Positions 267 to 13,635 of a stretch of 23,650 bases of DNA are shown one piece after another. The notes beneath the pieces were generated by a model, which was given only the letters and a program-made list of their open reading frames with translations, was not told where the DNA came from and ran no database searches. Position 1 is the first letter of the stretch; every line of letters begins with the position of its first letter. The translations under genes were made by a program, and so were the position numbers. The DNA is from an uncultured bacterium (lineage in GTDB: Bacteria > Muiribacteriota > Ozemobacteria > Ozemobacterales > Ozemobacteraceae): contig CAZOMG010000017.1 of the NCBI GenBank assembly GCA_964580875.1, positions 64,001-87,650 of the forward strand, written 5' to 3'.

Positions 267-2732
267 CTAGCGGTCGGTGGCAGCTTTTTTTAATGTGGCC
301 TCTGCTTTGCCGTCGATAGATCTGATATGCAGGTCGTGTTGCGGAAACGGAATTTCAATACTGTTCTCACGGAACAGCCTTTCGATTTCGTAATTGATTT
401 CGTTTTTGACTTTCAGGCGAACATCAATGTCGGCAACCCAGGCACGCAGTTCAAAATCAAGTGAGCTGCTGCCAAAATTCATAAAATACACAGCTGGTTC
501 AGGAAATTTCATGACGAAAGGGTTTTCTTGAGCGATTCTCAGTAGTATCTGGGTAACCTTTTGCACATCAGATCCGTAGGCAACCCCAATCTGTATAATG
601 AGCCTGGTCTGGCGGTCAGAGAGAGTCCAGTTGATGACGGTGCTCGAAACCAGATCGCTGTTGGGCACAATCATTTCTGAGCGGTCAAAGGTTTCGACGA
701 CCGTTGCCCGCAGACCCAGATTTTTTATGGTTCCCCATTCGCCTTTGATCTGCACGATATCGCCGACTTTAATCGAGCGCTCAAAAAGCATGATGATGCC
801 GCTGGCGAAGTTATTAACGATATTCTGCAGGCCGAAGCCGATACCGATGCCCAGCGCCCCGACGATTACGGTCAGGTTCTGAAGGCCGATGCCAATGGTC
901 GAAAGCCCGGTGGTAACCGCTAGAACTATGAATGCGTAATGAATAAGGCGATTGATCGAAATACCGACCCCACGCTCAACTTTGCGCCTTGGGTAAACTT
1001 CTTCTTCGAGAAGCCGCTGCAGCAGCCATGAGATGGTCAACGATGCGTAGACAATGACGATTGCCCAGATCAACATGCCGAGTGAAAGCCGGTAGCCCTC
1101 GAGTGAGATGCCAAAAGCGAGCAGATTCTCGGCGGCCAGCCAGATACTGTCGAAAAAGCCCCAGATTGACAGCATCGCGGCCAAAGCAAAAAAGACGACG
1201 ACCGTATCGATGATGACGCTGGTTCGCTTGATGAACAAATGGTAATGCCGGTTGATCAAGTCGTATTTGCGCACGAAACTGTTGTCGAACAGGGCATCAA
1301 CAATGCCTCTGAGCACCAGATTGATCATCCAGGCCACGACCCCGATAAATACAGTTTTAATAGTTACGTCGAGCAGGTGGTTGGAAAAAGCCACGTAACC
1401 GGCAGCCTGCGACAGAAACACCATTGCCAGCGAAGCGCCACCCGTTTTAACCCCGGCGACGAAGGTCATTGATCTGCCTTCTGCCTGGTTGACCCTGGCA
1501 CGCCAGAAACAGAGCATGGCCCCCGCCAGGCCGACGGCCGCCGTAAAAACCCGCATGGCCGGAGCCGGCAGTGCAATGAAAGTAAACAACTGAATGGTCA
1601 GATATAGCGTGACAATGAAGTAGAGAAGGCGCCGCCGCCAGGTCAGGCTGATCAGCCCACCGATCAGCCGTGCTGAAGATATTGAGATCAGGCCGGCAAA
1701 CAGCAGCTGAAAAAGCTTCGGAACGGATTCAAAGAGCGGCATCGGCACCAGCAGGCCAAGCAGAAAACTTGCTGACCATGGCCGGGCAACGATAAAACCG
1801 AGTTTGAATTTATCAAGATCGCGGTCTTTCTGACTGCGCAGAAACCAGGCGGTTCCGGCAATGAAAAAAATCTGCAAAAACAGCACCCAGCCAAAAGTTT
1901 GAAAGAATTTGCGGTCAGGCAGCTCAAAACTGGCGATGCCCAGCCAGAATTCTTCCCATAGGGCTTTGTCGAATTGCATGACAAAGGTTGGGGTGAACAT
2001 GGCCGGCCGGGATTTTCGAAAAAGATCCTTGCGCATCTCACTCATCAACCGGTCAATATCGCTCAACTGCTTTTGCGTTTCGCGCTGAAGTTCGATGACC
2101 TGCTGCTGAAAATTTACCAGCGGCGCTTCGATACCTTCAAGCTTGCCCCGGGCGACGGCGATGATTTCACTGGCATTAGTTACAACGTTGTGCAGCGATG
2201 AACCGGTTTCGGCGGGCAGCGCATTTTTCTGGTTCTGCCAGACTTTTTCGTTTTCAGCCCATTTCTGCTTGAGGGTTTCGCTTTTAACGAGTCTTTCTGA
2301 GATGTAGCGTGCGTGGCGGCCGATGGCATCGATCAGGGCGCGAATTTCGCTGCGCAGCCCGGAAATTTTTTCGAAGCCGTAACTTCCGGACTCCCTGACT
2401 TCGACAAACTGCTGCTGCTGATCATGGAGTTTTTCTTTGTGAATTTTGTGCTCGGCGAGCAGTTTGCTGACGTCGGTTAATTCGGTAATAGTTACGTAAA
2501 GGGCGTCAACTTCGTCTTTCAGCGCTTCAGCCTTTGGCAATACCTCAGCCATCGAATCATTGGCGTTGTCAGGGGTGGTAGAGGCATTGATCGCGGGCAT
2601 CTGCAAGGGCAATGGCCCGATAAACTGGCTGAGATCGATCATCTGAGCCGTTGCGGGCTGACACGCAAAGAAAGCGTGCAAAATCAGCAAAATCAGGCAA
2701 AATTTTGCCAGAAACAAATATTGGCGCGGCAT
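267..2732 (-). CDS. MscS-family mechanosensitive ion channel with large N-terminal periplasmic coiled-coil domain (MscK/YbiO-like), 821 aa
   Basis: ATG at 2730-2732 with an AGGAGA Shine-Dalgarno 6 nt upstream. N-terminal signal peptide, then a long coiled-coil region (LKDEVDALY, QQQQFVEV...). About 10 TM helices follow, then a canonical MscS pore/beta domain (GIGFGLQNIVNNFASGIIMLFERSIKVGDIVQIKGEWGTIKNLGLRATVVETFDRSEMIVPNS). Lies 59 bp downstream of the Ehr-like operon on the same strand. Confidence 0.85.
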   Translation of the reverse strand: MPRQYLFLAKFCLILLILHAFFACQPATAQMIDLSQFIGPLPLQMPAINASTTPDNANDSMAEVLPKAEALKDEVDALYVTITELTDVSKLLAEHKIHKEKLHDQQQQFVEVRESGSYGFEKISGLRSEIRALIDAIGRHARYISERLVKSETLKQKWAENEKVWQNQKNALPAETGSSLHNVVTNASEIIAVARGKLEGIEAPLVNFQQQVIELQRETQKQLSDIDRLMSEMRKDLFRKSRPAMFTPTFVMQFDKALWEEFWLGIASFELPDRKFFQTFGWVLFLQIFFIAGTAWFLRSQKDRDLDKFKLGFIVARPWSASFLLGLLVPMPLFESVPKLFQLLFAGLISISSARLIGGLISLTWRRRLLYFIVTLYLTIQLFTFIALPAPAMRVFTAAVGLAGAMLCFWRARVNQAEGRSMTFVAGVKTGGASLAMVFLSQAAGYVAFSNHLLDVTIKTVFIGVVAWMINLVLRGIVDALFDNSFVRKYDLINRHYHLFIKRTSVIIDTVVVFFALAAMLSIWGFFDSIWLAAENLLAFGISLEGYRLSLGMLIWAIVIVYASLTISWLLQRLLEEEVYPRRKVERGVGISINRLIHYAFIVLAVTTGLSTIGIGLQNLTVIVGALGIGIGFGLQNIVNNFASGIIMLFERSIKVGDIVQIKGEWGTIKNLGLRATVVETFDRSEMIVPNSDLVSSTVINWTLSDRQTRLIIQIGVAYGSDVQKVTQILLRIAQENPFVMKFPEPAVYFMNFGSSSLDFELRAWVADIDVRLKVKNEINYEIERLFRENSIEIPFPQHDLHIRSIDGKAEATLKKAATDR

Positions 2733-2791: not shown

Positions 2792-3550
2792 TTAAATGCG
2801 GCCCATAAACCTGAGAATGCCTTCGAGAATGGTCCAGGGGTTCGGCGGGCAACCGGGAATATAAAGGTCGACGGGTATCAGGTCGCCGATTCCGTCGTTG
2901 ACTTCACTGTTGCCCCTGAATAACCCGCCCGAAATAGCGCAGGCGCCTGTGGCAATCACCACTGAGGGTGAAGGCAGGGCGGCATAAGTTTTTTGCAGCG
3001 CCAGTTTCATGTTCTGGGAAACTGGCCCGGTAACCAGCAGTCCATCGGCGTGCCGTGGCGAGGCGACGAACTGAATTCCGAACCTGGCCAGATCAAAAGT
3101 TGGGGTGCCAAGAACGTTGCAGTCCGCTTCGCAGGCGTTGCAACCACCGGCACTCACCTGGCGGAGCTTGAGGGAACGCCCGAAAATACGCTTGATTTCA
3201 GCGCCCATGGCTTCGGCGGTTTTAAATTCGCTGCTGCTGATCAGCAGATCGTTTTTGTGGCGTGCCGCCAGAGAAAATTCGCGGCTGAAACTGATCAGCT
3301 TGGCCGGGCAGGCTGGCTCACAGGCGCGACAGAAAATACAGCGCCCCATGTCGATTACCGGGCGGTGGTCTGAACCACAACTGACAGCACCGGTGGGGCA
3401 GACATTAATACAGGCTGTGCAGTCATTCTGGCATGTGCCGGTCGCAATCATGGGGCGGCCAGTATAGCGTGGCGCCATTTCCGGTATTTTATCGGGAAAC
3501 GGGAAGGTACGATACTGTTGGTGCAAGCGGGCTTTAAGAATCTGCAGCAT
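2792..3550 (-). CDS. Fusion protein: 2x[4Fe-4S] ferredoxin domain (HyfH/HycF/NuoI-like) + group-4 hydrogenase small subunit / NuoB-like domain (HyfI/HycG-like), 252 aa
   Basis: ATG at 3548-3550 with a GAGGT Shine-Dalgarno 6 nt upstream. The N-terminal half has two CxxCxxCxxxCP motifs (CQNDCTACINVCP, CIFCRACEPACP). The C-terminal half matches NuoB/HycG (ASPRHADGLLVTGPVSQNMKLALQKTY...VIATGACAISGG...DLYIPGCPP) and has CNAC (CxxC) in place of the complex-I CC motif, as in group-4 hydrogenase small subunits. All four proximal-cluster Cys ligands are present. Confidence 0.85.
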   Translation of the reverse strand: MLQILKARLHQQYRTFPFPDKIPEMAPRYTGRPMIATGTCQNDCTACINVCPTGAVSCGSDHRPVIDMGRCIFCRACEPACPAKLISFSREFSLAARHKNDLLISSSEFKTAEAMGAEIKRIFGRSLKLRQVSAGGCNACEADCNVLGTPTFDLARFGIQFVASPRHADGLLVTGPVSQNMKLALQKTYAALPSPSVVIATGACAISGGLFRGNSEVNDGIGDLIPVDLYIPGCPPNPWTILEGILRFMGRI

Positions 3551-3558
3551 ATTTTACC

Positions 3559-5058
3559 TCACAGGTCGTGGCCGCAATAAGAGAGGTTGAAGCTCTTGTT
3601 GCACAGCGGAAAGTCAGATATTTCCTGGTTGCGCAGCGCCAGAGCCAGGCCAAACCAGTTATGAAACGAGGGGTCGGTAATTTTGTAGGTCTGAAGCTTG
3701 CCTTGCGCGTCGGTAACCGCCACATGGCAGATTTCGCCGCGCCAGCCTTCGGTGAGGCTGACACTGATTGACGAGGCCGCCATTTTCAGGGGTGTGGTGT
3801 TACAACCGGCCGGTTCAGCTGATATATCGGCAAGCATGGCTCTGATGAGCCGCAGTGATTCTTTAATTTCAAGCCAGCGAATGGTGGCGCGGGCGTTCAC
3901 ATCGCCGCACCGGCCGATTTCGATGAGCGGAACAGCGGGTGGGTAATCTTCATAGGCTCCAAATGGATGAGAAAGACGAACATCGGTCAGAAGTGCGCAG
4001 GCACGGGCCGCTGGCCCTACCAGGCCGATGGTCACGGCGTCTTCCTGACTGACATGCCCGGTTTCATCGAAACGCGATACTACCGAAGGGGTGTCCCAGA
4101 TCAGGTCGATGGCCGAAATCAGGTCAGCCTCAATCAGTGTCAGTTTATCGAGAATCTGCTGTTTAAGGGTTGCGTCGATATGGTAACCGACGCCGCCGGT
4201 CTTGACCAGACCTCTGCCGAAGCGGTTGCCGCAGATAAGGCCAGTCGTGTTGAGCACGTCGCCCCTGATGCGGCCGCAATAAGATGAAGTCGGCAGAAAG
4301 CCGACATCGCCGGCCATGGCGCCGAGGTCGCCGGTATGGTTGGCGATGCGCTCAAGTTCGAGAGCTATACTTCTGATCAGACTGGCATTTTTGTCTGGTT
4401 TAAGGCCGGCCAGGGCCTCGTAATTCATGGCAAAAGCGGTTGCGTGGCCGATACTCGTATCACCGGCCGTGGCTTCGAGCAGGCGGATAATTTTTTGGGG
4501 AGTTGCGGTGGGAATTGCTTTTTCTATGCCGCGATGCTGGTAGCCAAGCTCAATTTCGAGATGAAAAACCTTTTCGCCGTGGCATTGAAATCTGAAGTGG
4601 CCGGGTTCGATAATGCCGGCATGAACAGGCCCAACCGCAACTTCGTGAACTTCTTCGCCATTGACTTCGAAGTAGTCGGTGACGCCTGGCGAAATCTCGC
4701 GGTTCTGACCGGCCCGGGGCTGAAACCGTATCGGCTTGAGCCAGGGGTGGCCAAGCATTTCGATGCCGTGTATTTCCGCGATTTCGCGTTCAAACCAGTG
4801 GGCCTGCGGAACCTGGGGTGTGAGTGCCTTGAATTTTCGACCACATTGGCAGGCAAACAGTTCTAACTCTGTTGTTTCGTCATCGGCAACAATTGCAATC
4901 ATGGTTGGCTGCTCACCTGGCAGCACGAACAGCGAGGCCAGGCGCACGCCTTTCTGGGTCAGGGTAATCAGATGCTGCCGAAAGCCTTCGATTTCCATGA
5001 CCGGCAGTCGATCTAATGTTGCGCAGGTGCCGTTTTTAATAGTCAGCTGGTTTTTCAC
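3559..5058 (-). CDS. NuoC-NuoD fusion / HycE-HyfG-like large subunit of an energy-converting-hydrogenase-related (Ehr) complex; lacks the cysteines at the N-terminal [NiFe] motif position and the canonical C-terminal CxxC; 499 aa
   Basis: GTG start at 5056-5058, overlapping the upstream stop (GTGA), with a GGAGGTG Shine-Dalgarno 7 nt upstream. N-terminal 30-kDa-subunit-like domain, then GPVHAGIIEPGHFRF and GYQHRGIEK, the hallmark motifs of NuoD and group-4 large subunits. Where RxCGxCxxxH is expected the protein reads EATAGDTSIGHATAF (nt about 4432-4476), with no Cys. The C-terminus reads DFPLCNKSFNLSYCGHDL, a C-x8-C spacing in place of DPCxxC. Confidence 0.85.
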   Translation of the reverse strand: MKNQLTIKNGTCATLDRLPVMEIEGFRQHLITLTQKGVRLASLFVLPGEQPTMIAIVADDETTELELFACQCGRKFKALTPQVPQAHWFEREIAEIHGIEMLGHPWLKPIRFQPRAGQNREISPGVTDYFEVNGEEVHEVAVGPVHAGIIEPGHFRFQCHGEKVFHLEIELGYQHRGIEKAIPTATPQKIIRLLEATAGDTSIGHATAFAMNYEALAGLKPDKNASLIRSIALELERIANHTGDLGAMAGDVGFLPTSSYCGRIRGDVLNTTGLICGNRFGRGLVKTGGVGYHIDATLKQQILDKLTLIEADLISAIDLIWDTPSVVSRFDETGHVSQEDAVTIGLVGPAARACALLTDVRLSHPFGAYEDYPPAVPLIEIGRCGDVNARATIRWLEIKESLRLIRAMLADISAEPAGCNTTPLKMAASSISVSLTEGWRGEICHVAVTDAQGKLQTYKITDPSFHNWFGLALALRNQEISDFPLCNKSFNLSYCGHDL

Positions 5059-6617
5059 AGTATTGCACCTCCGAGAAGGGTGGCTGCCCCGTTGATGGCG
5101 GTTCTGAAAGAATCAGGCAGATAGAAGCCGAGCACTACAGCCGCCGACAGAAAAAAGACCGGCGTGATCAGCTGTAACACAGTTTCGCTAACCTCGTGTT
5201 CTTCGGCCGGAGCATGGTGTCTGCCATGTTTTCGGGTGTGTTTATGTGGTGAATCATGGTCGTCACGGTGATGATCACCACTGGATAAGGGCTTTTCGGA
5301 TTGAACGCCCTGGGTCATCTGCATAAAAATGGTCAGCATGCCGATGAAGACGATCAAGAGAAACAGCAGGTAGAAAGCGGCGATATACCAGCTGCGGGTG
5401 ACCAGCGCAGCACGCAGAATGGTGAATTCGCTGATGAAAGTTCCGAAGGGTGGTGTGCCGGTGATGGCCAGAAACCCTGCCAGCCACAACATGCCTGTGT
5501 AAGGCAGGCTTTTCAGCAACCCGGTCACCTTTTCTACCTTTTTGGTGTCGAATGCCGAAAGAATATTGCCGGCGAGCAGAAAGAGCGAAGATTTGACCAG
5601 TGAGTGGCAGATGGCGTGCAGCATGGCGCCGGCGATTGCCGCGCCACCCAGACCGATACCGGTGGCCAGGATTCCCATGTGCTCGACGCTTGAATATGCG
5701 AGCATCCTTTTATAATCGGGCTGATGTAGAATAAAAATGCCCGAAACGCCCATTGAGACGATGCCGGCAATGACAAGAAGCTCAGATGCAAAAGCGGCGG
5801 TGGCGGGCAGGGCGACGCAGACCTGATAAATGCGAAGAATACCGAGAAAGGCACAGTTCAGAAGGCCCCCTGAAAGCATAGCCGATACGGGTGACGGCGC
5901 TTCGCTGTGGGCATCTGGAAGCCAGGTATGCATTGGCGCAAGACCCATTTTGGTGCCGTAACCCACCAGAACAAAGATAAAGGCGACCTTCAGCCACCTG
6001 ACCTTGAGATAGCCGGCGTAAAGAACCAGCCCGGCGGGGGTAAAGAGCTCAACATGATGCGTAGCGGTCATCGCCAGAAAGAAAACACCCATCAGCGCCA
6101 GCGCGATGCCAACTGAACAGATAATCATGTATTTCCAGGCGGCTTCGAGCGAGCGTCGGCTGCGGTGATAATATATCAGCGGTGTGCTTGCCAGGGTCGT
6201 GGCTTCGATGCCGATCCATTGCAGGCCGAAGTGCATACTGAGAATCGCCAGACTCATGGCCGCGAGAAATAACTGCATACAGGCGGCATAGATGGCGTTA
6301 CGGTTTTTGAGAAACTGCCAGTTGGCAAGATCAGAACCGTCTTCTTGCGGGTGTTTGTCGAGGTAGACCATTGAATAGATGGCTGAACCGGCGAACAGCA
6401 GACTGGTCAGCGACAGAAAAATTCGGGTAAGGTGGTCGACGCCGAGCCAGACGCCGTTCAATTCTCCGGCGTCGCCTTTGCAGAGGCGAATGACCAGAAA
6501 AAGATGCACAAAGGCGACTATTACAAGGATATTCTTGCGCAGGCGCTCTGAATCAATAAATAACGAAATAATGCCGGTAATTACCGGAAGAATGATCAAT
6601 GCCCAGGCGGTATTCAT
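5055..6617 (-). CDS. Antiporter-like membrane subunit, HyfF/NuoN/NuoM (MrpD) family, with a His-rich insertion loop, 520 aa
   Basis: ATG at 6615-6617 overlaps the upstream stop (ATGA). The protein is polytopic, with the conserved TWLPDAHSEAPSPVSAML motif typical of proton-pumping NuoL/M/N-type subunits. A His-rich segment (SSGDHHRDDHDSPHKHTRKHGRHHAPAEEHE, residues about 445-475, nt about 5193-5285) precedes the last TM helix. Confidence 0.8.
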   Translation of the reverse strand: MNTAWALIILPVITGIISLFIDSERLRKNILVIVAFVHLFLVIRLCKGDAGELNGVWLGVDHLTRIFLSLTSLLFAGSAIYSMVYLDKHPQEDGSDLANWQFLKNRNAIYAACMQLFLAAMSLAILSMHFGLQWIGIEATTLASTPLIYYHRSRRSLEAAWKYMIICSVGIALALMGVFFLAMTATHHVELFTPAGLVLYAGYLKVRWLKVAFIFVLVGYGTKMGLAPMHTWLPDAHSEAPSPVSAMLSGGLLNCAFLGILRIYQVCVALPATAAFASELLVIAGIVSMGVSGIFILHQPDYKRMLAYSSVEHMGILATGIGLGGAAIAGAMLHAICHSLVKSSLFLLAGNILSAFDTKKVEKVTGLLKSLPYTGMLWLAGFLAITGTPPFGTFISEFTILRAALVTRSWYIAAFYLLFLLIVFIGMLTIFMQMTQGVQSEKPLSSGDHHRDDHDSPHKHTRKHGRHHAPAEEHEVSETVLQLITPVFFLSAAVVLGFYLPDSFRTAINGAATLLGGAIL

Positions 6618-7288
6618 TCGTCTGCCTCCTCAACCACCGTAGCGGCAATTTCAAGGTCTGAAAGTTCGTTGAAGCGGTCGGCATCAAGGTGATCAAATTC
6701 ACGGTCAATATGGAAAAGCATGATGCCCATGAGGAAAATTCCGACAAAAACGTCGAGCAGAATGCCCAGTTCAACCATCGTTGAAAATTCGCTGCCAAGA
6801 CTCAACCCGGTGGTGAACACCCCGTTTTCGAGCACCAGAAAGCCGAGGGTCTGGGTAAGCGCCTTGCGACGGGTCATCAGAAGCAACAACCCTGAAAAAA
6901 CCAGAAAGAAGCCGCAGGTAAGTGCCACCGGAGATGCGATCGGGTCGGTTTCCAGCAGGGTGCTGACGATCCAGCCAGAAACGGCCAGAAGAAAGACACC
7001 GCACAGCATCGAGGCGCCGAAGCTGATAAAGGGTTCAATTTCGCGTTTGGTACCTGAGACAATCATGGCTTTATTGAGCAGCCATGGCAAAAGCCCGCTT
7101 TTCAAAACGATACTGGTAATCGAGAGGATGACCAGACCTGGGGTGAGATGCCCTGGCCCGACTGCGAACAACTGCAGAAGGCCAAGCAGCAGACCCTGAA
7201 AAGCCACCATGCGGATTGCGACACGCAGGCGACTCGAACCGAGCAGTAACAGGCATGATAATGTAAGTAGTGTAGCGATGCTGTTCAT
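6614..7288 (-). CDS. HyfE-like small membrane subunit (NuoK-related) of hydrogenase-4-type complexes
   Basis: Hydrophobic protein of about 224 aa. LGFLVLENGVFTTGLSL matches the conserved FGYxLMENG region of E. coli HyfE. The ORF track starts at a TTG at 7309; an ATG at 7286-7288 (MNSIATLL), 7 nt after the HyfC-like stop, is the more likely start. The stop overlaps the next start (ATGA). Confidence 0.65.
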   Translation of the reverse strand: MNSIATLLTLSCLLLLGSSRLRVAIRMVAFQGLLLGLLQLFAVGPGHLTPGLVILSITSIVLKSGLLPWLLNKAMIVSGTKREIEPFISFGASMLCGVFLLAVSGWIVSTLLETDPIASPVALTCGFFLVFSGLLLLMTRRKALTQTLGFLVLENGVFTTGLSLGSEFSTMVELGILLDVFVGIFLMGIMLFHIDREFDHLDADRFNELSDLEIAATVVEEADE

Positions 7289-7295
7289 GATATTT

Positions 7296-8216
7296 TCAGT
7301 TCCCTGCAATCTTGAGAATCAGAGCAATAATGGCGAGAGCGCCAGAACCGACAATGAATTTCGGAATATGAATCAGCCGCATTCTGGCGATCGTTGATTC
7401 AATCATGCCGATCAAAACGGCAACCAGAAACATGCCTGCTGCGAAAACCGGAAAATGCAGCAGGGTTGGCATGGCCGGAGTGCTGATCACCAGCCCGACC
7501 AGAAGACCCGAAAACAGCCAGAGTTTATAGGCCGCGGCGTATTCGATCATCGCCAGATCCTTGCTGCTGTAATCGAGAATCATCACCTCGTGAATCATCG
7601 TCAGTTCAAGATGGGTGTTGGGGTCATCGACCGGAATTCTCGCATTTTCGGTGAGCAGTACGATCATCCAGCTCACGGCGATCAGCAGCATAATGGCAGG
7701 GTTCTGTTGCCAGTGCCCGGGCGACAGTTCGGCAAAAATGCCCGAGATACTGAGACTGCCGGTTTCGTATATCAGCACGAGCAGCCCGCAGAATAGCGCC
7801 GGCTCAGCAAGGGCGCTATAGAGCACTTCACGGCTGGCGCCCATTCCCTCAAAGGCTGAACCGCGGTCAAGAGCCGCCGTTACCATAAAAAACCTCGCAA
7901 TGCCCAACAGGTAGGCCATAAAGATGATGTCACCCGAAAAAGTGCAGCAGGCCGGGTTGAAGAAGCCGGGCATCAGCAGGCCGGCACCGATGGTGGCGAA
8001 GAAGATCGCGAAGGGTGCGAGTCGGGTGAGCAGCGTTGCGGTGCGGCTATAGGTCGCTGATTTGTGCATCAGTTTAAACAGGTCAAAGTAGAGCTGGGTA
8101 ACCGGGGGGCCCTTTTTGCCGCCGAAGAAGGCTTTGACCTTGTTGATAATACCCGGAAACAAAGGGGCAAGAAACAGCGACAATATAAACCAGAGGATCG
8201 ATGTGTTATTGATCAT
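7296..8216 (-). CDS. HyfC/HycD/NuoH-like membrane subunit (respiratory-chain NADH dehydrogenase subunit 1 family), 306 aa
   Basis: ATG at 8214-8216 overlaps the upstream stop (ATGA). Eight-TM protein with the NuoH-like N-terminus (PLFPGIINKVKAFFGGKKGPP...) and the conserved TMIHEVMILDYS and ELSPGH-type motifs. Confidence 0.8.
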   Translation of the reverse strand: MINNTSILWFILSLFLAPLFPGIINKVKAFFGGKKGPPVTQLYFDLFKLMHKSATYSRTATLLTRLAPFAIFFATIGAGLLMPGFFNPACCTFSGDIIFMAYLLGIARFFMVTAALDRGSAFEGMGASREVLYSALAEPALFCGLLVLIYETGSLSISGIFAELSPGHWQQNPAIMLLIAVSWMIVLLTENARIPVDDPNTHLELTMIHEVMILDYSSKDLAMIEYAAAYKLWLFSGLLVGLVISTPAMPTLLHFPVFAAGMFLVAVLIGMIESTIARMRLIHIPKFIVGSGALAIIALILKIAGN

Positions 8217-10201
8217 ATTACAGCTACTTTCCAGAGCAGCAGGGCGAGAAGTGCAATGGCCAGATAGCCGACATAAAGGTGCAGATGGCCATGTTGCAGT
8301 GCTCTGAGTGGAACCACCAGCCGGTCAATCAGGGCGAAAAGCGGCAGAAAAAGGTAGCGCAACAGGGAGTCGGGCGCTTCAGTTCTAAAACTGGCGTGTT
8401 GCGGGAACAGGCCGCTGACCTTTTCGCCATGGCGAAAGGGTCTGACGATACTCGAAAAAACTTCAGAAACAGGCTGAGAGAAAGATGACGAAGTATATTG
8501 AATACGTGCATTGGGGGCGGCAAAACCGCAGTCCCAGGTGGGGCGATCCTGGACTTCGCCTTTGGAAAAGCGGCTTTTCTGGATGCGCCAGCCCAGCATG
8601 ACCAGTATGATCAATGCCAGTGAAAAAGCCGATATGGCACGCAAAGGCACGGCCGACAGCAGAAGATCATCGGCCGAAAACAGCATGCCGGCGGGGGCGC
8701 CGATCTCGGCAACAACGCGTGAAACCGGCAGCAGTAACCAGGGCGACAGCAAAGCCACTGAAAAAATAGCCAGAACGAGAATTGCCATGGGGAGCCTTAC
8801 CAGCGGTTTTATTTCCATGGGTGGTGGTTGTTTTTCTTCTCGCGGTGCGCCGAGAAAAACCAGCCCGAAGGTTCGTGAAAAACAGGCGGCGGCCAGGCCG
8901 CCGATGAGACCAAGACCGGCCAGCACAGTAGCAGAGAGCAGCAGGGCTGATGAGGTTCCGAGGCGGGTCGCTTTAAGCCCGGCCAGAAAAATGAGAAATT
9001 CACTGACAAAATTGTTGAAGGGCGGGAGACCGGCAATGGCGGCCGAACCTATTCCAAAGGCAAGGGCCGTGAACGGCATCGACTTCGCGAGCCCGCCCAT
9101 TGACTCCAGTTTTCTCGTTCCGGTGCCGAAATAGACGGCCCCCGAACCAAGAAACAGCAGGCCCTTGCAGATTGAATGATTGAGAATGTGCATCAAGGCA
9201 CCGGCTAAAGCTGCAAAGGCCATGGCCGGCAGCTTCCAGATGGTGGCAAGCACTGCACAACCGAGAGCCATGAGAATAATACCGGCGTTTTCCATGCTGC
9301 TGTAGGCGATGACTTTTTTAAGGTCATGCTGCACCAGCGCGGTGATCAGGGCAAAAACCCCGGTTAACAGGCCGCCGAACAGCAGGGTCCAGCCCCAGGA
9401 TGCCTGTTGAACCGGCAGAAACATCATGACCCTCACCAGCCCATAAAAGCCCATTTTGCTCATCGCACCCGACAGAACTGCCGAAACATGAGCGTCGGCA
9501 AAGGTATATGAATCAGGAAGCCATACATGTAACGGAATCAGCCCGACCTTAACGCCAAACCCGAACAGGGCGAGAAAAAAAATCGTCGAATAAGAACCGT
9601 AGGTGGCTGGAGCATTCAGAAACTGGTCGAATTCAAACGAGCCGGCCGAAGCGCTCAGCAGACCGAAGAGAATGAACAGGCCGGCTGTGCCGATGTGACT
9701 GGCCACCATAAAACGCCAACCGGCGTTGCGAACCGTGCCGATTTCGCTGCGGTGTGTAATGAGAAAAAAAGCTGCAACCGACATGATTTCCCATTCCATG
9801 AGAAAGAGGACAGCGTTGGCGGAAGCGAGCAACATCAACATCGAGGCAATCAGCAGGTTATAAAAAAACCAGTAACTGCCCAGGGCATGCTTTTCGTCAT
9901 AATGGGCGGTAGCGGCGGCATAAATTGCTGCGAGTGAGCCGAGCAGAATAACAGGCAGTGCGAAAAATGCCGATACCTGGTCAAGGCAAAGGGTAGCCGG
10001 GCCGAGGGGCAGGTTGAGCAGATAGCGACCGGTATCAGAAGCAAAAAACAAGCTTTGACAGACAGTCACCAGGGCCATTGCACAACCGGCAAGACACGAA
10101 AGGGCGCCGATCGCTGAAGAAAGGTTGCGCATGCGGCCAAAAAGTCCGGCGAAGCTTCCGCCGACTATAATAATCAAAATTGCGGTTAAAAAGAGCTGCA
10201 T
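8213..10201 (-). CDS. HyfB/HycC/NuoL-like antiporter-type membrane subunit, 662 aa; first gene of the operon
   Basis: ATG at 10199-10201 with an AGAGG Shine-Dalgarno about 9 nt upstream. Large polytopic protein with the HVWLPDSY and AGLPPFNNFVSEF motifs characteristic of the NuoL/MrpA/HyfB family. Preceded by a 420 bp intergenic region. Confidence 0.8.
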   Translation of the reverse strand: MQLFLTAILIIIVGGSFAGLFGRMRNLSSAIGALSCLAGCAMALVTVCQSLFFASDTGRYLLNLPLGPATLCLDQVSAFFALPVILLGSLAAIYAAATAHYDEKHALGSYWFFYNLLIASMLMLLASANAVLFLMEWEIMSVAAFFLITHRSEIGTVRNAGWRFMVASHIGTAGLFILFGLLSASAGSFEFDQFLNAPATYGSYSTIFFLALFGFGVKVGLIPLHVWLPDSYTFADAHVSAVLSGAMSKMGFYGLVRVMMFLPVQQASWGWTLLFGGLLTGVFALITALVQHDLKKVIAYSSMENAGIILMALGCAVLATIWKLPAMAFAALAGALMHILNHSICKGLLFLGSGAVYFGTGTRKLESMGGLAKSMPFTALAFGIGSAAIAGLPPFNNFVSEFLIFLAGLKATRLGTSSALLLSATVLAGLGLIGGLAAACFSRTFGLVFLGAPREEKQPPPMEIKPLVRLPMAILVLAIFSVALLSPWLLLPVSRVVAEIGAPAGMLFSADDLLLSAVPLRAISAFSLALIILVMLGWRIQKSRFSKGEVQDRPTWDCGFAAPNARIQYTSSSFSQPVSEVFSSIVRPFRHGEKVSGLFPQHASFRTEAPDSLLRYLFLPLFALIDRLVVPLRALQHGHLHLYVGYLAIALLALLLWKVAVI

Positions 10202-10622: not shown

Positions 10623-12020
10623 ATGATTATCCTTGTCAGAGCACAGCAGAGACTGCATGAAGAGTATAGTGTTACCTCTCGTTTGAAAGGTGATAGAGTA
10701 GTGATTAGAAATTGCCTGCCATTGCTTCGTATCCGAATTGCTTTATCTAAAGTCGCCTGCCTCGGGCTGCTTTTGTTGGTTTTGTGCTGGCCTGCAACCG
10801 CCGGCGCGGTTCTCAATGTCGTCAGTGAATTGTCGGGTCGTGACTGCTCCCCCTGGGAGCGCACCGAACTCATTGCAGACGACGACGCGCATTTTATTGC
10901 TGAGCCTTTTCATCTGAAGAGTCGTCATACTCACAGCATTGTTTTAAAAGCCTTCGGCACCGCCAAACCACATTCGCGCAATTTTCTGCTGCATTTCGCC
11001 CCCCGCTGGGATCGCCCCCGCCAGAAAGTGCCGGTTTTGCTGGTGCATGGCGCCGGTGATAACGCCTGCCGGGGTTTTTGCCACCCATATTCCTTCGACC
11101 TCCCCGAATCCGGAACCATTGACAAACCAGGTATGATGCAGCATCTGGTCCGTGAGGGTTTTTCGGTGTTTGGTATAACCTTTTCACATCCGCATGGCGA
11201 TAACTTTTTGCAGGCGCAGCAGGTTGCCAATGCTATCGCCCGCATTCGCGAGCTGACCGGTTCCGAAAAGGTCGATATTGTCTGTCACAGCAAAGGTGCC
11301 ATGTCGGTGCGAATTTATGCTTCCGATCTCGGCAGTGAATACCCTGAATATGCCTGGTTGACTCCCTTTCGCCACGACATCAGAAAAATCGTTTTTGTCG
11401 CATCGCCTCTCAAGGGCATTGATACTGCCTTCAGATATTACATGTATAATTTTACTGTCATGCAGCAAAAACTTGCCGCGCCGCTTGGCCCGCGTTCAAT
11501 GGCCTGGCAGGGCATGTATGTCGACAATGAAAGCCACAACCGGCTTTTTCCGGGGCAGTTTCAGATGTTGCATAACTGGGCCAACGATGGCATTGACCTG
11601 AGTGGTCAAAGTCTTACTGCAGATGCAAATATTACGTGTAAAGCGCTTTATAACGGTGGCGTCAGTGCGATGCTTGTTTCAGATGGCATTGATCGTGCTA
11701 TACAGGAATCCGGAAATGTGATAGACTCTCTCTGCAAAAAGGGAGTCGACCCCTCGATCACCTGTCATATTCTCGCCGGTACCGACCAGAAAATCGACAC
11801 TCTGAAGCTTTTCTGGCTTGAGCTTCCGGTCGGCGAATTTGCTGACAGCAGCGACGGGGTCTTGTTTCTCAAGAGTGCGACCTATAAGAAGGGTTTGACA
11901 GCCCGCGGTGCCAAGGTTGCCAGTGTCAAGACACTGAACATGCACCACGTTGGCGTGACCGTTCGGCCAGAAGCGCTCAATCACATTTCCGAGGTTTTAC
12001 GTGAAAGAAATTCTGATTAA
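10623..12020 (+). CDS. Secreted lipase/esterase-like alpha/beta hydrolase (family I-type lipase motifs), 465 aa by ORF track; probable true start at GTG about 10704
   Basis: A hydrophobic signal-peptide-like segment (ACLGLLLLVLCWPATAGA) follows an internal GTG at 10704, which has a strong AAAGGTGA Shine-Dalgarno 7 nt upstream. Oxyanion-type VLLVHGAGD and nucleophile-elbow VCHSKGAMS (x-H-S-x-G) motifs resemble Bacillus/Pseudomonas true-lipase boxes. The stop at 12018-12020 overlaps the next gene's start. Confidence 0.7.
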   Translation: MIILVRAQQRLHEEYSVTSRLKGDRVVIRNCLPLLRIRIALSKVACLGLLLLVLCWPATAGAVLNVVSELSGRDCSPWERTELIADDDAHFIAEPFHLKSRHTHSIVLKAFGTAKPHSRNFLLHFAPRWDRPRQKVPVLLVHGAGDNACRGFCHPYSFDLPESGTIDKPGMMQHLVREGFSVFGITFSHPHGDNFLQAQQVANAIARIRELTGSEKVDIVCHSKGAMSVRIYASDLGSEYPEYAWLTPFRHDIRKIVFVASPLKGIDTAFRYYMYNFTVMQQKLAAPLGPRSMAWQGMYVDNESHNRLFPGQFQMLHNWANDGIDLSGQSLTADANITCKALYNGGVSAMLVSDGIDRAIQESGNVIDSLCKKGVDPSITCHILAGTDQKIDTLKLFWLELPVGEFADSSDGVLFLKSATYKKGLTARGAKVASVKTLNMHHVGVTVRPEALNHISEVLRERNSD

Positions 12021-12576
12021 AAAATACGACAACCGTCGTTTGTATTGCGTTGAAGAAGCCAGATATGTTTCCCTCACCGAGATTCGCGATTTTTTGCAAC
12101 GCGGCGACAAGGTCAAGGTTGTCGAAAAAACCACCGGCAAAGATATCACCAAATACATTCTGATGCAGGTGATGCTCGAAGACCGCTATGAACTGGTGCC
12201 GACCTATTTTTACCAGATGATGCTGCAATCACAGCCCGAAGCACTCGATTATTTTTTCCAGCAGTTCTTCCCCTGGATGATGAGCATGTACAAAAACTAC
12301 CAGGAAGGCAAATTCGCGTTGCCGAGCATGCCCGGCATGCCAGCCATGCCCAGCACGCCGTTTCAGAATCCCTGGATGCAGATGCCCAACCCTTTTCAGG
12401 GCATTAACCCTTTTATGCAGCAGGCGGCGACCCCGCAGTCAACCGCGACTGCTGCCCCTCCGCCCCCGGCCGGCAAAAAAGCGGGCAAACCTGAGGCTCC
12501 CGCCTCCGGTGATGATAAAATGGCCGAGATTCTCAAGCGCCTGCGCGAACTCGAAGAAAAGCTGCACTCAGAGTGA
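12001..12576 (+). CDS. PhaR-family DNA-binding protein (PHA/PHB accumulation regulator N-terminal domain) with Met/Pro/Gln-rich low-complexity C-terminal tail, 191 aa
   Basis: GTG start at 12001 with a GAGG Shine-Dalgarno 7 nt upstream; the start lies 20 nt inside the end of the lipase gene. The N-terminus (ILIKKYDNRRLYCVEEARYVSLTEIRDFLQRGDKVKVVEKTTGKDITKYILMQVMLE) closely matches the conserved PhaR N-terminus (IKKYPNRRLYDT..S.Y.TL.DV....VKVVDAKSG.DLTRSILLQIILE). The C-terminus (MPGMPAMPSTPFQNPWMQMPNPFQGINPFMQQ...) is low-complexity and ends in an amphipathic helix. Confidence 0.75.
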   Translation: MKEILIKKYDNRRLYCVEEARYVSLTEIRDFLQRGDKVKVVEKTTGKDITKYILMQVMLEDRYELVPTYFYQMMLQSQPEALDYFFQQFFPWMMSMYKNYQEGKFALPSMPGMPAMPSTPFQNPWMQMPNPFQGINPFMQQAATPQSTATAAPPPPAGKKAGKPEAPASGDDKMAEILKRLRELEEKLHSE

Positions 12577-13510: not shown

Positions 13511-13635
13511 GCGGTATCGATTCATCGATCACGATGGCGACGGGGCACTGTCATTTCCCCTGAATTACGCCCGCCACCATGAAGTATTTGCATTTTTATA
13601 AAAATAAGACTGTCATAAGAACACGGAGATTCATC

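What the first reader, a model, noticed from the sequence alone, without database searches (positions are those of the whole stretch)
5193..5285. Histidine-rich loop (14 His in 31 residues) inserted before the last TM helix of the NuoN/HyfF-like antiporter subunit
The segment SSGDHHRDDHDSPHKHTRKHGRHHAPAEEHE is not part of the conserved antiporter fold. It contains a TM-helix-loop-TM-helix arrangement at the C-terminus. His-rich stretches of this kind are typical of Ni/Zn/Co-binding or storage proteins such as HypB, SlyD and Hpn. Finding one on a membrane subunit of a complex that has lost its Ni site is unexpected. It could be a metal sensor or filter, a proton-relay or pH-sensing loop at the membrane surface, or a docking site for a partner protein.
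Basis: seen in the sequence. Interest (0 to 1): 0.55.

Follow-up and report, generated by a model that had tools for sequence, protein, structure and literature searches.

The report
Histidine-rich loop on hydrogenase-like pump
One small group of uncultured Riflebacteria carries a floppy, histidine-rich loop of about 45 residues on the cytoplasmic face of a membrane subunit of a nickel-free, hydrogenase-like ion pump; it is real and kept by selection, probably binds metal ions, and is an accessory decoration, not a new kind of machine.

Summary
The peptide sits exactly where reported, on the minus strand, as residues 445-475 of a 520-aa HyfF/NuoN-like subunit. It has 9 histidines in 31 residues, not 14. 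That is still far above chance (P about 4e-5 after scanning the whole protein).

It is the core of the 44-residue TM13-TM14 loop. The loop is predicted disordered and lies on the cytoplasmic side.

The loop is 14-18 residues in most homologs. A single insertion in one monophyletic Riflebacteria/Ozemobacteraceae clade made it 40-50 residues, with 3-11 His. It is the only indel of 3 or more residues in the six-subunit complex.

Between subclades the loop sequence is as scrambled as shuffled controls. Length, acidity and His excess nevertheless persist, and dN/dS stays below 1. This points to selection on composition, not on sequence.

The low-His basal members carry a Cys next to His (HGCH, GCHAH).

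The host complex has lost the canonical Ni-ligand cysteines, so it is Ehr-type.

My best reading, which is inferred and untested, is a cytoplasmic divalent-metal-binding or titratable loop like the His-loops of CDF/ZIP transporters. Rivals are a pH or proton buffer, a functionless low-complexity expansion, and a docking site.

Interest is modest: a new variant of a known kind.

The parts
5193..5285 (-). His-rich core of the loop, residues 445-475: 9 His, 7 Asp/Glu, 5 Lys/Arg in 31 aa
   Evidence: Translation and counts. Binomial test.
5184..5315 (-). Whole TM13-TM14 loop, residues 435-478. Predicted coil; residues 442-468 have pLDDT below 50. Cytoplasmic side.
   Evidence: AF2 model. K+R distribution. 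Family topology, in which helix HL after TMH15 is cytoplasmic and the beta-hairpin element is periplasmic, PMC7419157.
5316..5393 (-). TM13, residues 409-434; conserved flank ending in ...GMLTIFMQM
5127..5183 (-). TM14, residues 479-497; conserved flank starting LQLITP
5079..5117 (-). C-terminal amphipathic helix, residues 501-513. Probably the connecting helix of the periplasmic beta-hairpin/helix element (inference).
   Evidence: family knowledge plus PMC7419157
5055..6617 (-). HyfF/NuoN/MrpD-like antiporter-like subunit, 520 aa, 14 TM helices
   Evidence: Pfam PF00361, 176 bits. NCBIfam HyfF models matched below their cut-offs. Foldseek TM-score about 0.8 to MrpD, NuoM and NuoN.
8213..10201 (-). 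HyfB/NuoL-like antiporter-like subunit, 662 aa; first gene of the six-gene operon
7296..8216 (-). NuoH/HyfC-like membrane subunit, 306 aa
6614..7288 (-). HyfE-like membrane subunit. The likely start is the ATG at 7288 (224 aa), not the TTG at 7309.
3559..5058 (-). Fused NuoC/NuoD-type (HycE/HyfG-like) large subunit without the four Ni-ligand cysteines
2792..3550 (-). NuoB/HyfI-like small subunit with an N-terminal 2x[4Fe-4S] NuoI/HyfH-like domain

Best explanation
SHOWN. The His-rich segment is the core of a 44-residue, intrinsically disordered, cytoplasm-facing loop between TM13 and TM14 of the HyfF/NuoN-like subunit. That subunit belongs to a six-subunit, Ni-free, hydrogenase-4-like (Ehr-type) complex of a Riflebacteria/Ozemobacteraceae bacterium. 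The loop arose by a single insertion of about 28 residues at a position that tolerates indels throughout the family. Since then its sequence has turned over completely between subclades. Its length (40-50 aa), net acidity, lack of hydrophobic residues and excess of His (3-11 per loop) have been kept, with dN/dS below 1.

INFERRED. The loop most likely acts as a flexible multi-site ligand for divalent transition-metal ions (Zn, Ni, Co, Fe or Cu; which one is unknown), using His imidazoles and neighbouring carboxylates, plus a Cys in the basal members. It would then work like the cytoplasmic His-loops of CDF/ZnT and ZIP transporters, as a local metal buffer or sensor on the cytoplasmic face. Metal occupancy, and inevitably pH, would change the loop's charge and compaction. 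That change could modulate the adjacent TM14/C-terminal helix, or shield the pump's cytoplasmic proton-entry sites from inhibitory metal ions. It is an accessory or regulatory appendage, not part of the conserved ion-translocation machinery. The confidence given (0.4) is for the inferred metal-binding mechanism; the shown anatomy and evolutionary history I hold at about 0.9.
For: - Position and disorder: AF2 coil at 435-478, with pLDDT below 50 at 442-468.
- Cytoplasmic side: K+R is 3 on the N-terminal side against 7 on the other side even without this loop (8 against 14 with 5-residue extensions). In this family helix HL, which follows TMH15, is cytoplasmic and the beta-hairpin element is periplasmic (PMC7419157). 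The model shows that hairpin between TM2 and TM3.
- Lineage specificity: the loop is 14-18 aa in most homologs and 40-50 aa only in the query's clade. That clade is monophyletic in a neighbour-joining tree built without the loop.
- It is the only indel of 3 or more residues across all six subunits between the window, L001 and the loop-less L004.
- Constraint: loop dN/dS is 0.05-0.46, against 0.02-0.04 for the rest of the protein.
- Composition, not sequence, is kept: in 28 subclade pairs the loop cores are no more alike than composition-matched shuffles, yet every member keeps 6-24% His, against 2.7% background.
- Other expansions at the same site have 0-2 His, so His-richness does not come automatically with an insertion here.
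- Metal-like chemistry: the three low-His basal subclades place a Cys directly beside His (GHGCHDD, EHGCSD, EGCHAH), and all loops are acidic with (H-x)n-like runs.
- Precedent: CDF His-loops are cytoplasmic, vary in length and His number, are absent in some members, and recruit or sense Zn (PMC10932157).
Against: - No metal-binding measurement exists.
- The host protein is not a metal transporter, and the window contains no metal-homeostasis or hydrogenase-maturation gene.
- His number varies three-fold within the clade, so a defined site is not conserved.
- Within the best-sampled subclade, His columns are not significantly better conserved than other columns (5/10 against 25/38 variable, p=0.47).
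- Many Lys/Arg residues sit among the His, which is less typical of Ni-storage tracts.
- Replication slippage contributes to loop growth in at least one lineage (a 9-bp GACCGGCAC repeat in L005), so mutational bias may explain part of the composition.
- dS is near saturation and the loop is short, so the dN/dS values are noisy.
Confidence: 0.4

Rival explanations
1. Functionless or nearly neutral low-complexity expansion. A slippage-prone hydrophilic insertion became fixed in one clade at a loop that tolerates any length, and it is merely kept soluble and non-disruptive.
For: The same site has expanded independently in other lineages with quite different compositions: G/P/E/A-rich loops of 42-55 aa, and a 96-aa repeat in P0176. 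The loop is disordered. It evolves 5-15 times faster than the rest of the protein and is scrambled between subclades. There is a 9-bp tandem repeat in L005 and a 3-aa indel between L005 and L006. His columns are not significantly more conserved than other columns.
Against: dN/dS is well below 1 in all within-subclade pairs. No clade member has lost or shortened the loop despite dS above 1.4 between subclades. His stays 2-9 times above background after complete positional turnover, whereas other expansions at this site have about 0-4% His. The window's own loop has no DNA repeat and normal GC.
Confidence: 0.22
2. pH sensor or proton-collecting buffer. The 9 His (pKa about 6-7) among carboxylates make a titratable brush. 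Its net charge flips from about -3 to about +6 as the cytoplasm acidifies, either feeding protons to the pump or gating it by pH.
For: Composition: 9 His, 9 Asp/Glu and 6 Lys/Arg in the 46-residue loop, with net charge -3 when His is left out. The loop is on the cytoplasmic (proton-uptake) face of a proton- or ion-translocating subunit. From general knowledge, His/carboxylate clusters act as proton antennae in reaction centres and cytochrome oxidase, and cytoplasmic His clusters tune the pH set-point of Na+/H+ exchangers.
Against: Basal clade members have only 3-4 His, so they buffer little. The Cys next to His in those members has no role in proton handling. In this family the cytoplasmic proton links run along TMH7/TMH8 of the first half-channel, whereas TM13-14 ends the second repeat (PMC7419157), so proximity to an entry site is not established. 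Sister lineages work without the loop.
Confidence: 0.18
3. Nickel storage or delivery tract, like those of HypB, SlyD, Hpn or CooJ, serving maturation of other [NiFe] enzymes or of a remodelled metal site in the Ehr large subunit.
For: His/Asp/Glu-rich composition. The large subunit keeps an almost invariant C-terminal motif with 2 Cys and a His (FPLCNKSFNLSYCGHDL) that might bind something.
Against: The loop has no homology to any Ni chaperone domain; PF00361 is the only Pfam hit and the loop gives no PDB sequence match. There are no hyp, ure, nik or slyD genes in the window or in the syntenic loci. The canonical Ni ligands are absent. The conserved large-subunit motif is identical in lineages that lack the loop, so it does not depend on the loop.
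Confidence: 0.06
4. Docking or 'fly-casting' site for a soluble partner, such as an acidic ferredoxin or another oxidoreductase module, or for anionic lipids.
For: The loop is disordered, charged and cytoplasmic, on the same face as the peripheral arm. Composition and length, not sequence, are conserved, as is typical of some interaction-prone disordered regions.
Against: The loop is net acidic when His is neutral, which is unfavourable for binding acidic ferredoxins or anionic lipids. No clade-specific partner gene appears in the otherwise identical synteny. No short linear motif is conserved across subclades.
Confidence: 0.08
5. Sequencing, assembly or frameshift artefact.
For: None found.
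Against: The reading frame is continuous, with conserved TM13 and TM14 on both sides. The identical protein occurs on several contigs, and related versions occur in more than 30 distinct sequences from independent projects.
Confidence: 0.01

Closest known systems
HyfF (hydrogenase-4 component F) and the NuoN/NuoM/MrpD antiporter-like subunits (Pfam PF00361)
   Same: PF00361 domain. 14-TM fold with broken TM7 and TM12. Invariant Glu on TM5 (E137), Lys on TM7 (K222), His/His/Lys on TM11 and an acidic residue on TM12 (E396). Same operon position as hyfF.
   Different: Scores fall below every NCBIfam HyfF equivalog cut-off (344 against 610 bits). The TM8 Lys of MbhH aligns with an invariant Asn253. 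The TM13-14 loop is expanded to 44 residues and is His-rich, which none of the 136 representatives of more distant clusters shows.
Ehr (energy-converting hydrogenase-related) complexes: group-4 [NiFe]-hydrogenase relatives without Ni ligands
   Same: The operon is of hyfBCEFG(H)I type. The large subunit lacks all four canonical Cys ligands. The NuoB-like subunit keeps its cluster cysteines. Ehr complexes are described in these terms in PMC6349859.
   Different: No partner dehydrogenase gene lies nearby. This subfamily has its own near-invariant replacement motifs, AGDT[ST][IV]GH and FPLCNKSFNLSYCGHDL. The His-loop is confined to one Riflebacteria subclade.
Cytoplasmic His-rich loops of CDF/ZnT (between TM4 and TM5) and ZIP metal transporters
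   Same: A disordered cytoplasmic inter-helix loop whose length and His number vary between members and which is absent in some. It mixes His with Asp/Glu (PMC10932157).
   Different: The host protein is a proton/cation-translocating subunit of a redox complex, with no HxxxD-type transmembrane metal site. There is no sequence homology, and metal binding is untested.
His-rich Ni/Zn-binding tracts of HypB, SlyD, Hpn, CooJ and UreE
   Same: Compositional resemblance: His with Asp/Glu, HH and HxH runs, and Cys beside His in some members.
   Different: Those are soluble maturation or storage proteins encoded with Ni-enzyme genes. Here the tract sits in a membrane protein of a Ni-free complex, is interspersed with Lys/Arg, and has no maturation genes in its context.
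Other lineage-specific expansions of the same TM13-14 loop in HyfF-like proteins (P0086, P0112, P0114, P0116, P0019, P0024, P0176)
   Same: Same insertion point, similar lengths (32-96 aa), hydrophilic and low-complexity.
   Different: They are Gly/Pro/Glu/Ala-rich or repeat-based, with 0-2 His (6 in the 96 residues of P0176). Only the query clade is His-rich.

Membership tests
Antiporter-like subunit family (PF00361; NuoL/M/N, MrpA/D, HyfB/D/F) | Proton_antipo_M domain above the Pfam gathering score | tested here: met
   176 bits against a cut-off of 21.5, residues 131-415
Antiporter-like subunit family (PF00361; NuoL/M/N, MrpA/D, HyfB/D/F) | 14-TM fold with discontinuous TM7 and TM12 | tested here: met
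   The AF2 model has helices 205-223/231-238 and 371-384/391-405. Foldseek TM-score is 0.76-0.83 to MrpD, NuoM and NuoN.
Antiporter-like subunit family (PF00361; NuoL/M/N, MrpA/D, HyfB/D/F) | Conserved charged residues: Glu on TM5, Lys on TM7, Lys or His on TM8, Lys or Glu on TM12 | tested here: inconclusive
   E137, K222 and E396 are invariant in 48 homologs and align with the MbhH equivalents. The MbhH TM8 Lys aligns with the invariant Asn253.
E. coli-type hydrogenase-4 subunit F (NCBIfam equivalogs NF005041-NF005045) | Score above the curated equivalog cut-off | tested here: not met
   The best model, NF005044, scores 344 bits against a cut-off of 610.
Group 4 [NiFe]-hydrogenase | Two CxxC motifs (four Cys) ligating Ni-Fe in the large subunit | tested here: not met
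   In the alignment to HycE (7z0s_E), VCGICGFAH corresponds to TAGDTSIGH and DPCYSC corresponds to NLSYCG. The same holds in L001, L004 and 120 homologs.
Ehr (energy-converting hydrogenase-related) complex | A group-4-like large subunit lacking the Ni ligands, encoded with NuoB-, NuoH- and antiporter-like subunits | tested here: met
   definition as given in PMC6349859
His-rich Ni chaperone/storage proteins (HypB, SlyD, Hpn, CooJ, UreE) | Homologous chaperone domain, or sequence similarity of the tract | tested here: not met
   PF00361 is the only Pfam hit for the protein. The loop alone gives no PDB sequence match even at E<=10.
His-rich Ni chaperone/storage proteins (HypB, SlyD, Hpn, CooJ, UreE) | Genomic association with Ni-enzyme maturation or Ni-uptake genes | tested here: not met
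   None in the 23.6-kb window or in the syntenic loci L001-L004. Whole genomes were not examined.
His-rich Ni chaperone/storage proteins (HypB, SlyD, Hpn, CooJ, UreE) | Demonstrated binding of several Ni/Zn ions per tract | not testable with these tools
   Needs ITC or IMAC on the peptide
CDF/ZIP-type cytoplasmic His-loop (functional analogy only) | Cytoplasmic inter-TM loop, disordered, with variable length and His number among members | tested here: met
   description of CDF His-loops in PMC10932157
CDF/ZIP-type cytoplasmic His-loop (functional analogy only) | The host is a metal transporter with a transmembrane metal site fed by the loop | tested here: not met
   The host is a PF00361 antiporter-like subunit with no CDF or ZIP domain.

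The most novel reading that the evidence does not exclude
The loop is a built-in metal- or pH-responsive regulator of an Ehr-type energy-converting complex. Occupancy of the His/Cys/carboxylate ligands by Zn, Ni or Co, or their protonation, would switch the charge and compaction of a cytoplasmic tether next to TM14. This would gate or protect ion translocation. It would be the first example of a CDF-like His-loop recruited onto a complex-I-family pump, evolving under selection for composition only.
Probability: 0.2. Interest if true: 0.55.

Novelty: new variant of a known kind. Interest (0 to 1): 0.3.

Why it matters
Ehr complexes are widespread in anaerobes, yet no substrate or regulator is known for any of them. 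A clade-specific appendage that is under selection gives a cheap experimental handle. The loop can be swapped for the 18-residue sister version without touching the rest of the complex, which has no other indel of 3 or more residues. It would also be a natural affinity tag for purifying a native Ehr complex. If the loop binds metals or senses pH, that would show complex-I-family pumps acquiring regulatory disordered loops of the kind known from metal transporters. If it does not, it is a clean example of a disordered region conserved in composition but not in sequence. Either way it does not change how the pump family is understood.

Tried and rejected
- Foreign insert or microsatellite: the window's loop DNA has no tandem repeat, and its GC is 0.49-0.50 against 0.53 for the window. 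Only L005 shows a 9-bp repeat.
- Overlapping gene or RNA: only spurious ORFs of 35-100 aa in other frames, and no Rfam family anywhere in the window.
- Genome-wide His-rich habit: no other real ORF in the window or in L001-L004 has a His-rich window.
- His-specific positional conservation: the trend (consensus fraction 0.956 against 0.825) is not significant by column counts (p=0.47), so I do not claim it.
- Ancestral retention of His positions between subclades: rejected, because loop cores align no better than shuffles.
- Correlated indels in partner subunits: none.
- Recurrence of His-rich loops elsewhere in the HyfF-like family: none among 120 close homologs or 136 representatives of more distant clusters.
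- Similarity of the loop to any solved protein: none.
- Literature on His-rich loops in HyfF or antiporter-like subunits: nothing found. Riflebacteria papers do not discuss it.
- The metagenome scan added only four more clade members, all consistent with the rest.
Full report
**1. Observation**

Window 5193..5285 read on the minus strand gives exactly SSGDHHRDDHDSPHKHTRKHGRHHAPAEEHE. These are residues 445-475 of ORF 5055..6617(-), 520 aa.

The enrichment is nevertheless far beyond chance. The rest of the protein has 13 His in 489 residues. P(>=9 of 31) is 7.9e-8 per window and about 3.9e-5 after allowing for every window in the protein. Other His-rich windows in six-frame translations of the window and of related loci all fall in non-coding frames.

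The DNA under the loop has no tandem repeat and ordinary GC. No Rfam family and no credible alternative ORF overlaps it.

The identical protein is already in GenBank as HNX74744.1, named 'proton-conducting transporter membrane subunit', Candidatus Rifleibacterium sp. Variants 96% identical come from independent assemblies. The feature is therefore not an artefact.

**2. The host protein and complex**

The ORF carries a PF00361 antiporter-like domain (176 bits). It matches the NCBIfam hydrogenase-4 subunit F models best, but below their equivalog cut-offs (344 against 610 bits).

An AlphaFold2 model built on 48 homologs is confident (pLDDT 89.6, pTM 0.90). It shows the canonical 14 helices, with broken TM7 and TM12. 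Foldseek places it with MrpD, NuoM and NuoN at TM-scores of about 0.8. E137 (TM5), K222 (TM7) and E396 (TM12) are invariant and align with the key residues of MbhH.

The gene is the fourth of a six-gene minus-strand operon:

| Gene product | Window coordinates |
|---|---|
| HyfB-like | 8213-10201 |
| NuoH/HyfC-like | 7296-8216 |
| HyfE-like | 6614-7288 |
| HyfF-like | 5055-6617 |
| Fused NuoC/D-type large subunit | 3559-5058 |
| NuoB-like small subunit with N-terminal 2x[4Fe-4S] domain | 2792-3550 |

Aligned to E. coli HycE (7z0s_E), the large subunit reads TAGDTSIGH where HycE has VCGICGFAH, and NLSYCG where HycE has DPCYSC. All four canonical Ni-Fe ligands are gone. This makes it an Ehr-type complex as defined in PMC6349859.

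**3. Where the loop sits**

In the model, TM13 is 409-434, residues 435-478 are coil (442-468 with pLDDT below 50), TM14 is 479-497, and a terminal amphipathic helix spans 501-513.

Lys+Arg counts in the loops are 3 on the N-terminal side against 7 on the opposite side, even when this loop is left out. With 5-residue extensions into the helices the counts are 8 against 14. By the positive-inside rule, the loops that follow odd-numbered helices are cytoplasmic.

This agrees with the solved family topology. Helix HL, which follows TMH15, lies on the cytoplasmic side, and the beta-hairpin elements lie on the periplasmic side (PMC7419157). The model has such a hairpin between TM2 and TM3.

The His-rich loop therefore faces the cytoplasm, on the same side as the peripheral arm, and is not in the membrane.

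**4. Distribution and origin**

- *Close homologs.* In 120 close homologs the TM13-14 loop is 14-18 residues in the great majority, with 0-2 His. This includes the sister Rifleibacterium group at 66-70% identity.
- *The query's clade.* Only the query's clade (75-96% identical; MAGs labelled Riflebacteria, Ozemobacteraceae or Rifleibacterium) has 40-50 residues with 3-11 His. A neighbour-joining tree built without the loop makes this clade monophyletic. The highest His counts (9-11) are in an inner group and the lowest (3-6) in basal branches. This implies one ancestral insertion followed by His enrichment.
- *Distant homologs.* Among 136 cluster representatives (37-60% identity) the matching region has a median of 27 residues against 56 in the query, and none is His-rich.
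- *Other expansions.* Independent expansions do occur at the same place. There are Gly/Pro/Glu/Ala-rich loops of 42-55 aa in P0086, P0112, P0114 and P0116, loops of 32-36 aa in P0019 and P0024, and a 96-aa degenerate repeat in P0176. The site is thus an indel hot spot, but His-richness is unique to this clade.
- *Rest of the complex.* Synteny and all subunit lengths are otherwise the same in the loop-bearing and loop-less clades. This loop is the only indel of 3 or more residues in about 2,470 aligned residues of the complex.

**5. Constraint**

Within subclades, loop dN/dS is 0.05-0.46, against 0.02-0.04 for the rest of the gene. Selection on the loop is relaxed but still clearly purifying. 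The values are noisy, because the region is short and dS is near saturation.

Between subclades the loop cores align no better than composition-matched shuffles. Only 4 of 28 pairs reach P<0.05. The flanking protein, in contrast, is about 80% identical. Several properties persist despite this complete positional turnover:

- Length stays at 40-50 residues.
- Net charge without His stays at -2 to -7.
- Hydrophobic residues remain few.
- His stays at 6-24%, against 2.7% background.

Ancestral retention cannot explain this. It points to selection on composition, or to a persistent mutational bias. A 9-bp GACCGGCAC (Asp-Arg-His) repeat and a 3-aa indel in the L005/L006 lineage show that slippage does contribute.

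A direct test of whether His columns are better conserved than other columns within the best-sampled subclade was not significant (p=0.47).

**6. Mechanism**

*What is shown.* The loop is a disordered, cytoplasmic, clade-specific appendage that is constrained in composition.

*What is inferred.* I consider divalent-metal binding the most likely property (confidence about 0.4), for three reasons:

- His is interleaved with carboxylates, which is classic ligand chemistry.
- The three low-His basal subclades each place a Cys directly beside His (GHGCHDD, EHGCSD, EGCHAH). A proton buffer or a spacer has no use for that.
- The closest functional precedent, the cytoplasmic His-loop of CDF/ZnT transporters, has the same behaviour. 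Its length and His number vary, it is absent in some members, and it recruits or senses Zn (PMC10932157).

The effect would be local metal buffering or sensing, possibly modulating TM14 and the C-terminal helix. It might also shield the cytoplasmic proton entries. That Zn2+ inhibits complex I proton transfer is from my own knowledge and was not tested here.

*Rivals:*

- **pH or proton buffer (0.18).** The loop flips from about -3 to about +6 on His protonation. But basal members have few His, and the loop closes the second repeat, not the TMH7/8 cytoplasmic link.
- **Neutral low-complexity expansion (0.22).** Supported by the hot-spot behaviour, opposed by dN/dS below 1 and by the persistent composition.
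- **Partner or lipid docking (0.08).**
- **Ni storage or delivery of the HypB/SlyD/Hpn kind (0.06).** There is no homology, no maturation genes in the context and no Ni site.
- **Artefact (0.01).**

**7. Comparison with what is known, and novelty**

The protein belongs to the antiporter-like subunit family, and the operon is an Ehr-type complex. It is not an equivalog of E. coli HyfF, and the complex is not a [NiFe]-hydrogenase. The loop works like, but is not a member of, the CDF/ZIP His-loops.

Full-text searches found nothing on His-rich loops in HyfF or in antiporter-like subunits.

This is a new variant of a known kind. Interest is modest (0.3). The practical value is as a handle, and a natural affinity tag, for studying an uncharacterised Ehr complex.

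**8. Noticed in passing**

The most intriguing side observation concerns the Ni-free large subunit. Its C-terminal 18 residues, DFPLCNKSFNLSYCGHDL, are identical in 107 of 120 homologs from many phyla that share only 52-80% identity overall. The former N-terminal Ni motif reads AGDT[ST][IV]GH almost everywhere. The old Ni pocket has been rebuilt into another, highly conserved site. That lead is probably more interesting than the His loop itself.

Noticed in passing
window 3562-3615 (-) and about 4440-4470 (-), in the large subunit 3559-5058: The last 18 residues, DFPLCNKSFNLSYCGHDL, are identical in 107 of 120 homologs that are only 52-80% identical overall and come from many phyla. The place of the N-terminal Ni motif reads AGDT[ST][IV]GH almost universally. 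The lost Ni-Fe pocket seems to have been replaced by another, extremely conserved site with 2 Cys and a His, of unknown function.
   Followed up: partly
window 267-2732 (-): An 821-aa MscS-family channel gene lies 60 bp downstream of the six-gene operon on the same strand. This synteny is kept in both the His-loop clade (L001, L002) and the loop-less Rifleibacterium clade (L003, L004), which suggests a functional link between the pump and the channel.
   Followed up: partly
window 10623-12020 (+) and 12001-12576 (+): A divergently transcribed alpha/beta-hydrolase (lipase-like, weak Pfam hits) and a PhaR-type PHB_acc_N regulator overlap by 20 bases. They are syntenic with the operon in all related loci.
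   Followed up: no
window 13579-20532 (+): A giant 2317-aa ORF with only sub-threshold MG2 and DUF7507 hits. A 2294-aa counterpart lies at the same place in L001.
   Followed up: no
window 7288-7309 (-): The mechanical ORF start of the HyfE-like gene (TTG at 7309, 231 aa) is probably wrong. Homologs start at the Met corresponding to the ATG at 7288 (224 aa).
   Followed up: yes
window 2792-3550 (-): The NuoB/HyfI-like small subunit carries an N-terminal NuoI/HyfH-like 2x[4Fe-4S] ferredoxin domain. Two normally separate subunits are thus fused, and the 252-aa length is conserved in all three lineages compared.
   Followed up: partly
HyfF-like protein, residue 253 (window about 5857-5859, -): The position that aligns with the TM8 Lys of MbhH is an invariant Asn in this HyfF-like family. 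TM12 carries Glu (E396) instead of Lys, as in NuoM-type subunits.
   Followed up: no
P0176 (567 aa, 43% identical to the query), TM13-14 region: A 96-residue expansion at the same insertion point is built of degenerate repeats (..HGAAAH(K/E)LS..). It is an independent example of repeat-driven growth of this loop.
   Followed up: no
L005 7384-7404: A 9-bp tandem repeat, GACCGGCAC (Asp-Arg-His) x2.3, lies inside the His loop of the P0002 lineage. The sister genome L006 differs there by a 3-aa indel. This shows replication slippage at work in the loop.
   Followed up: yes
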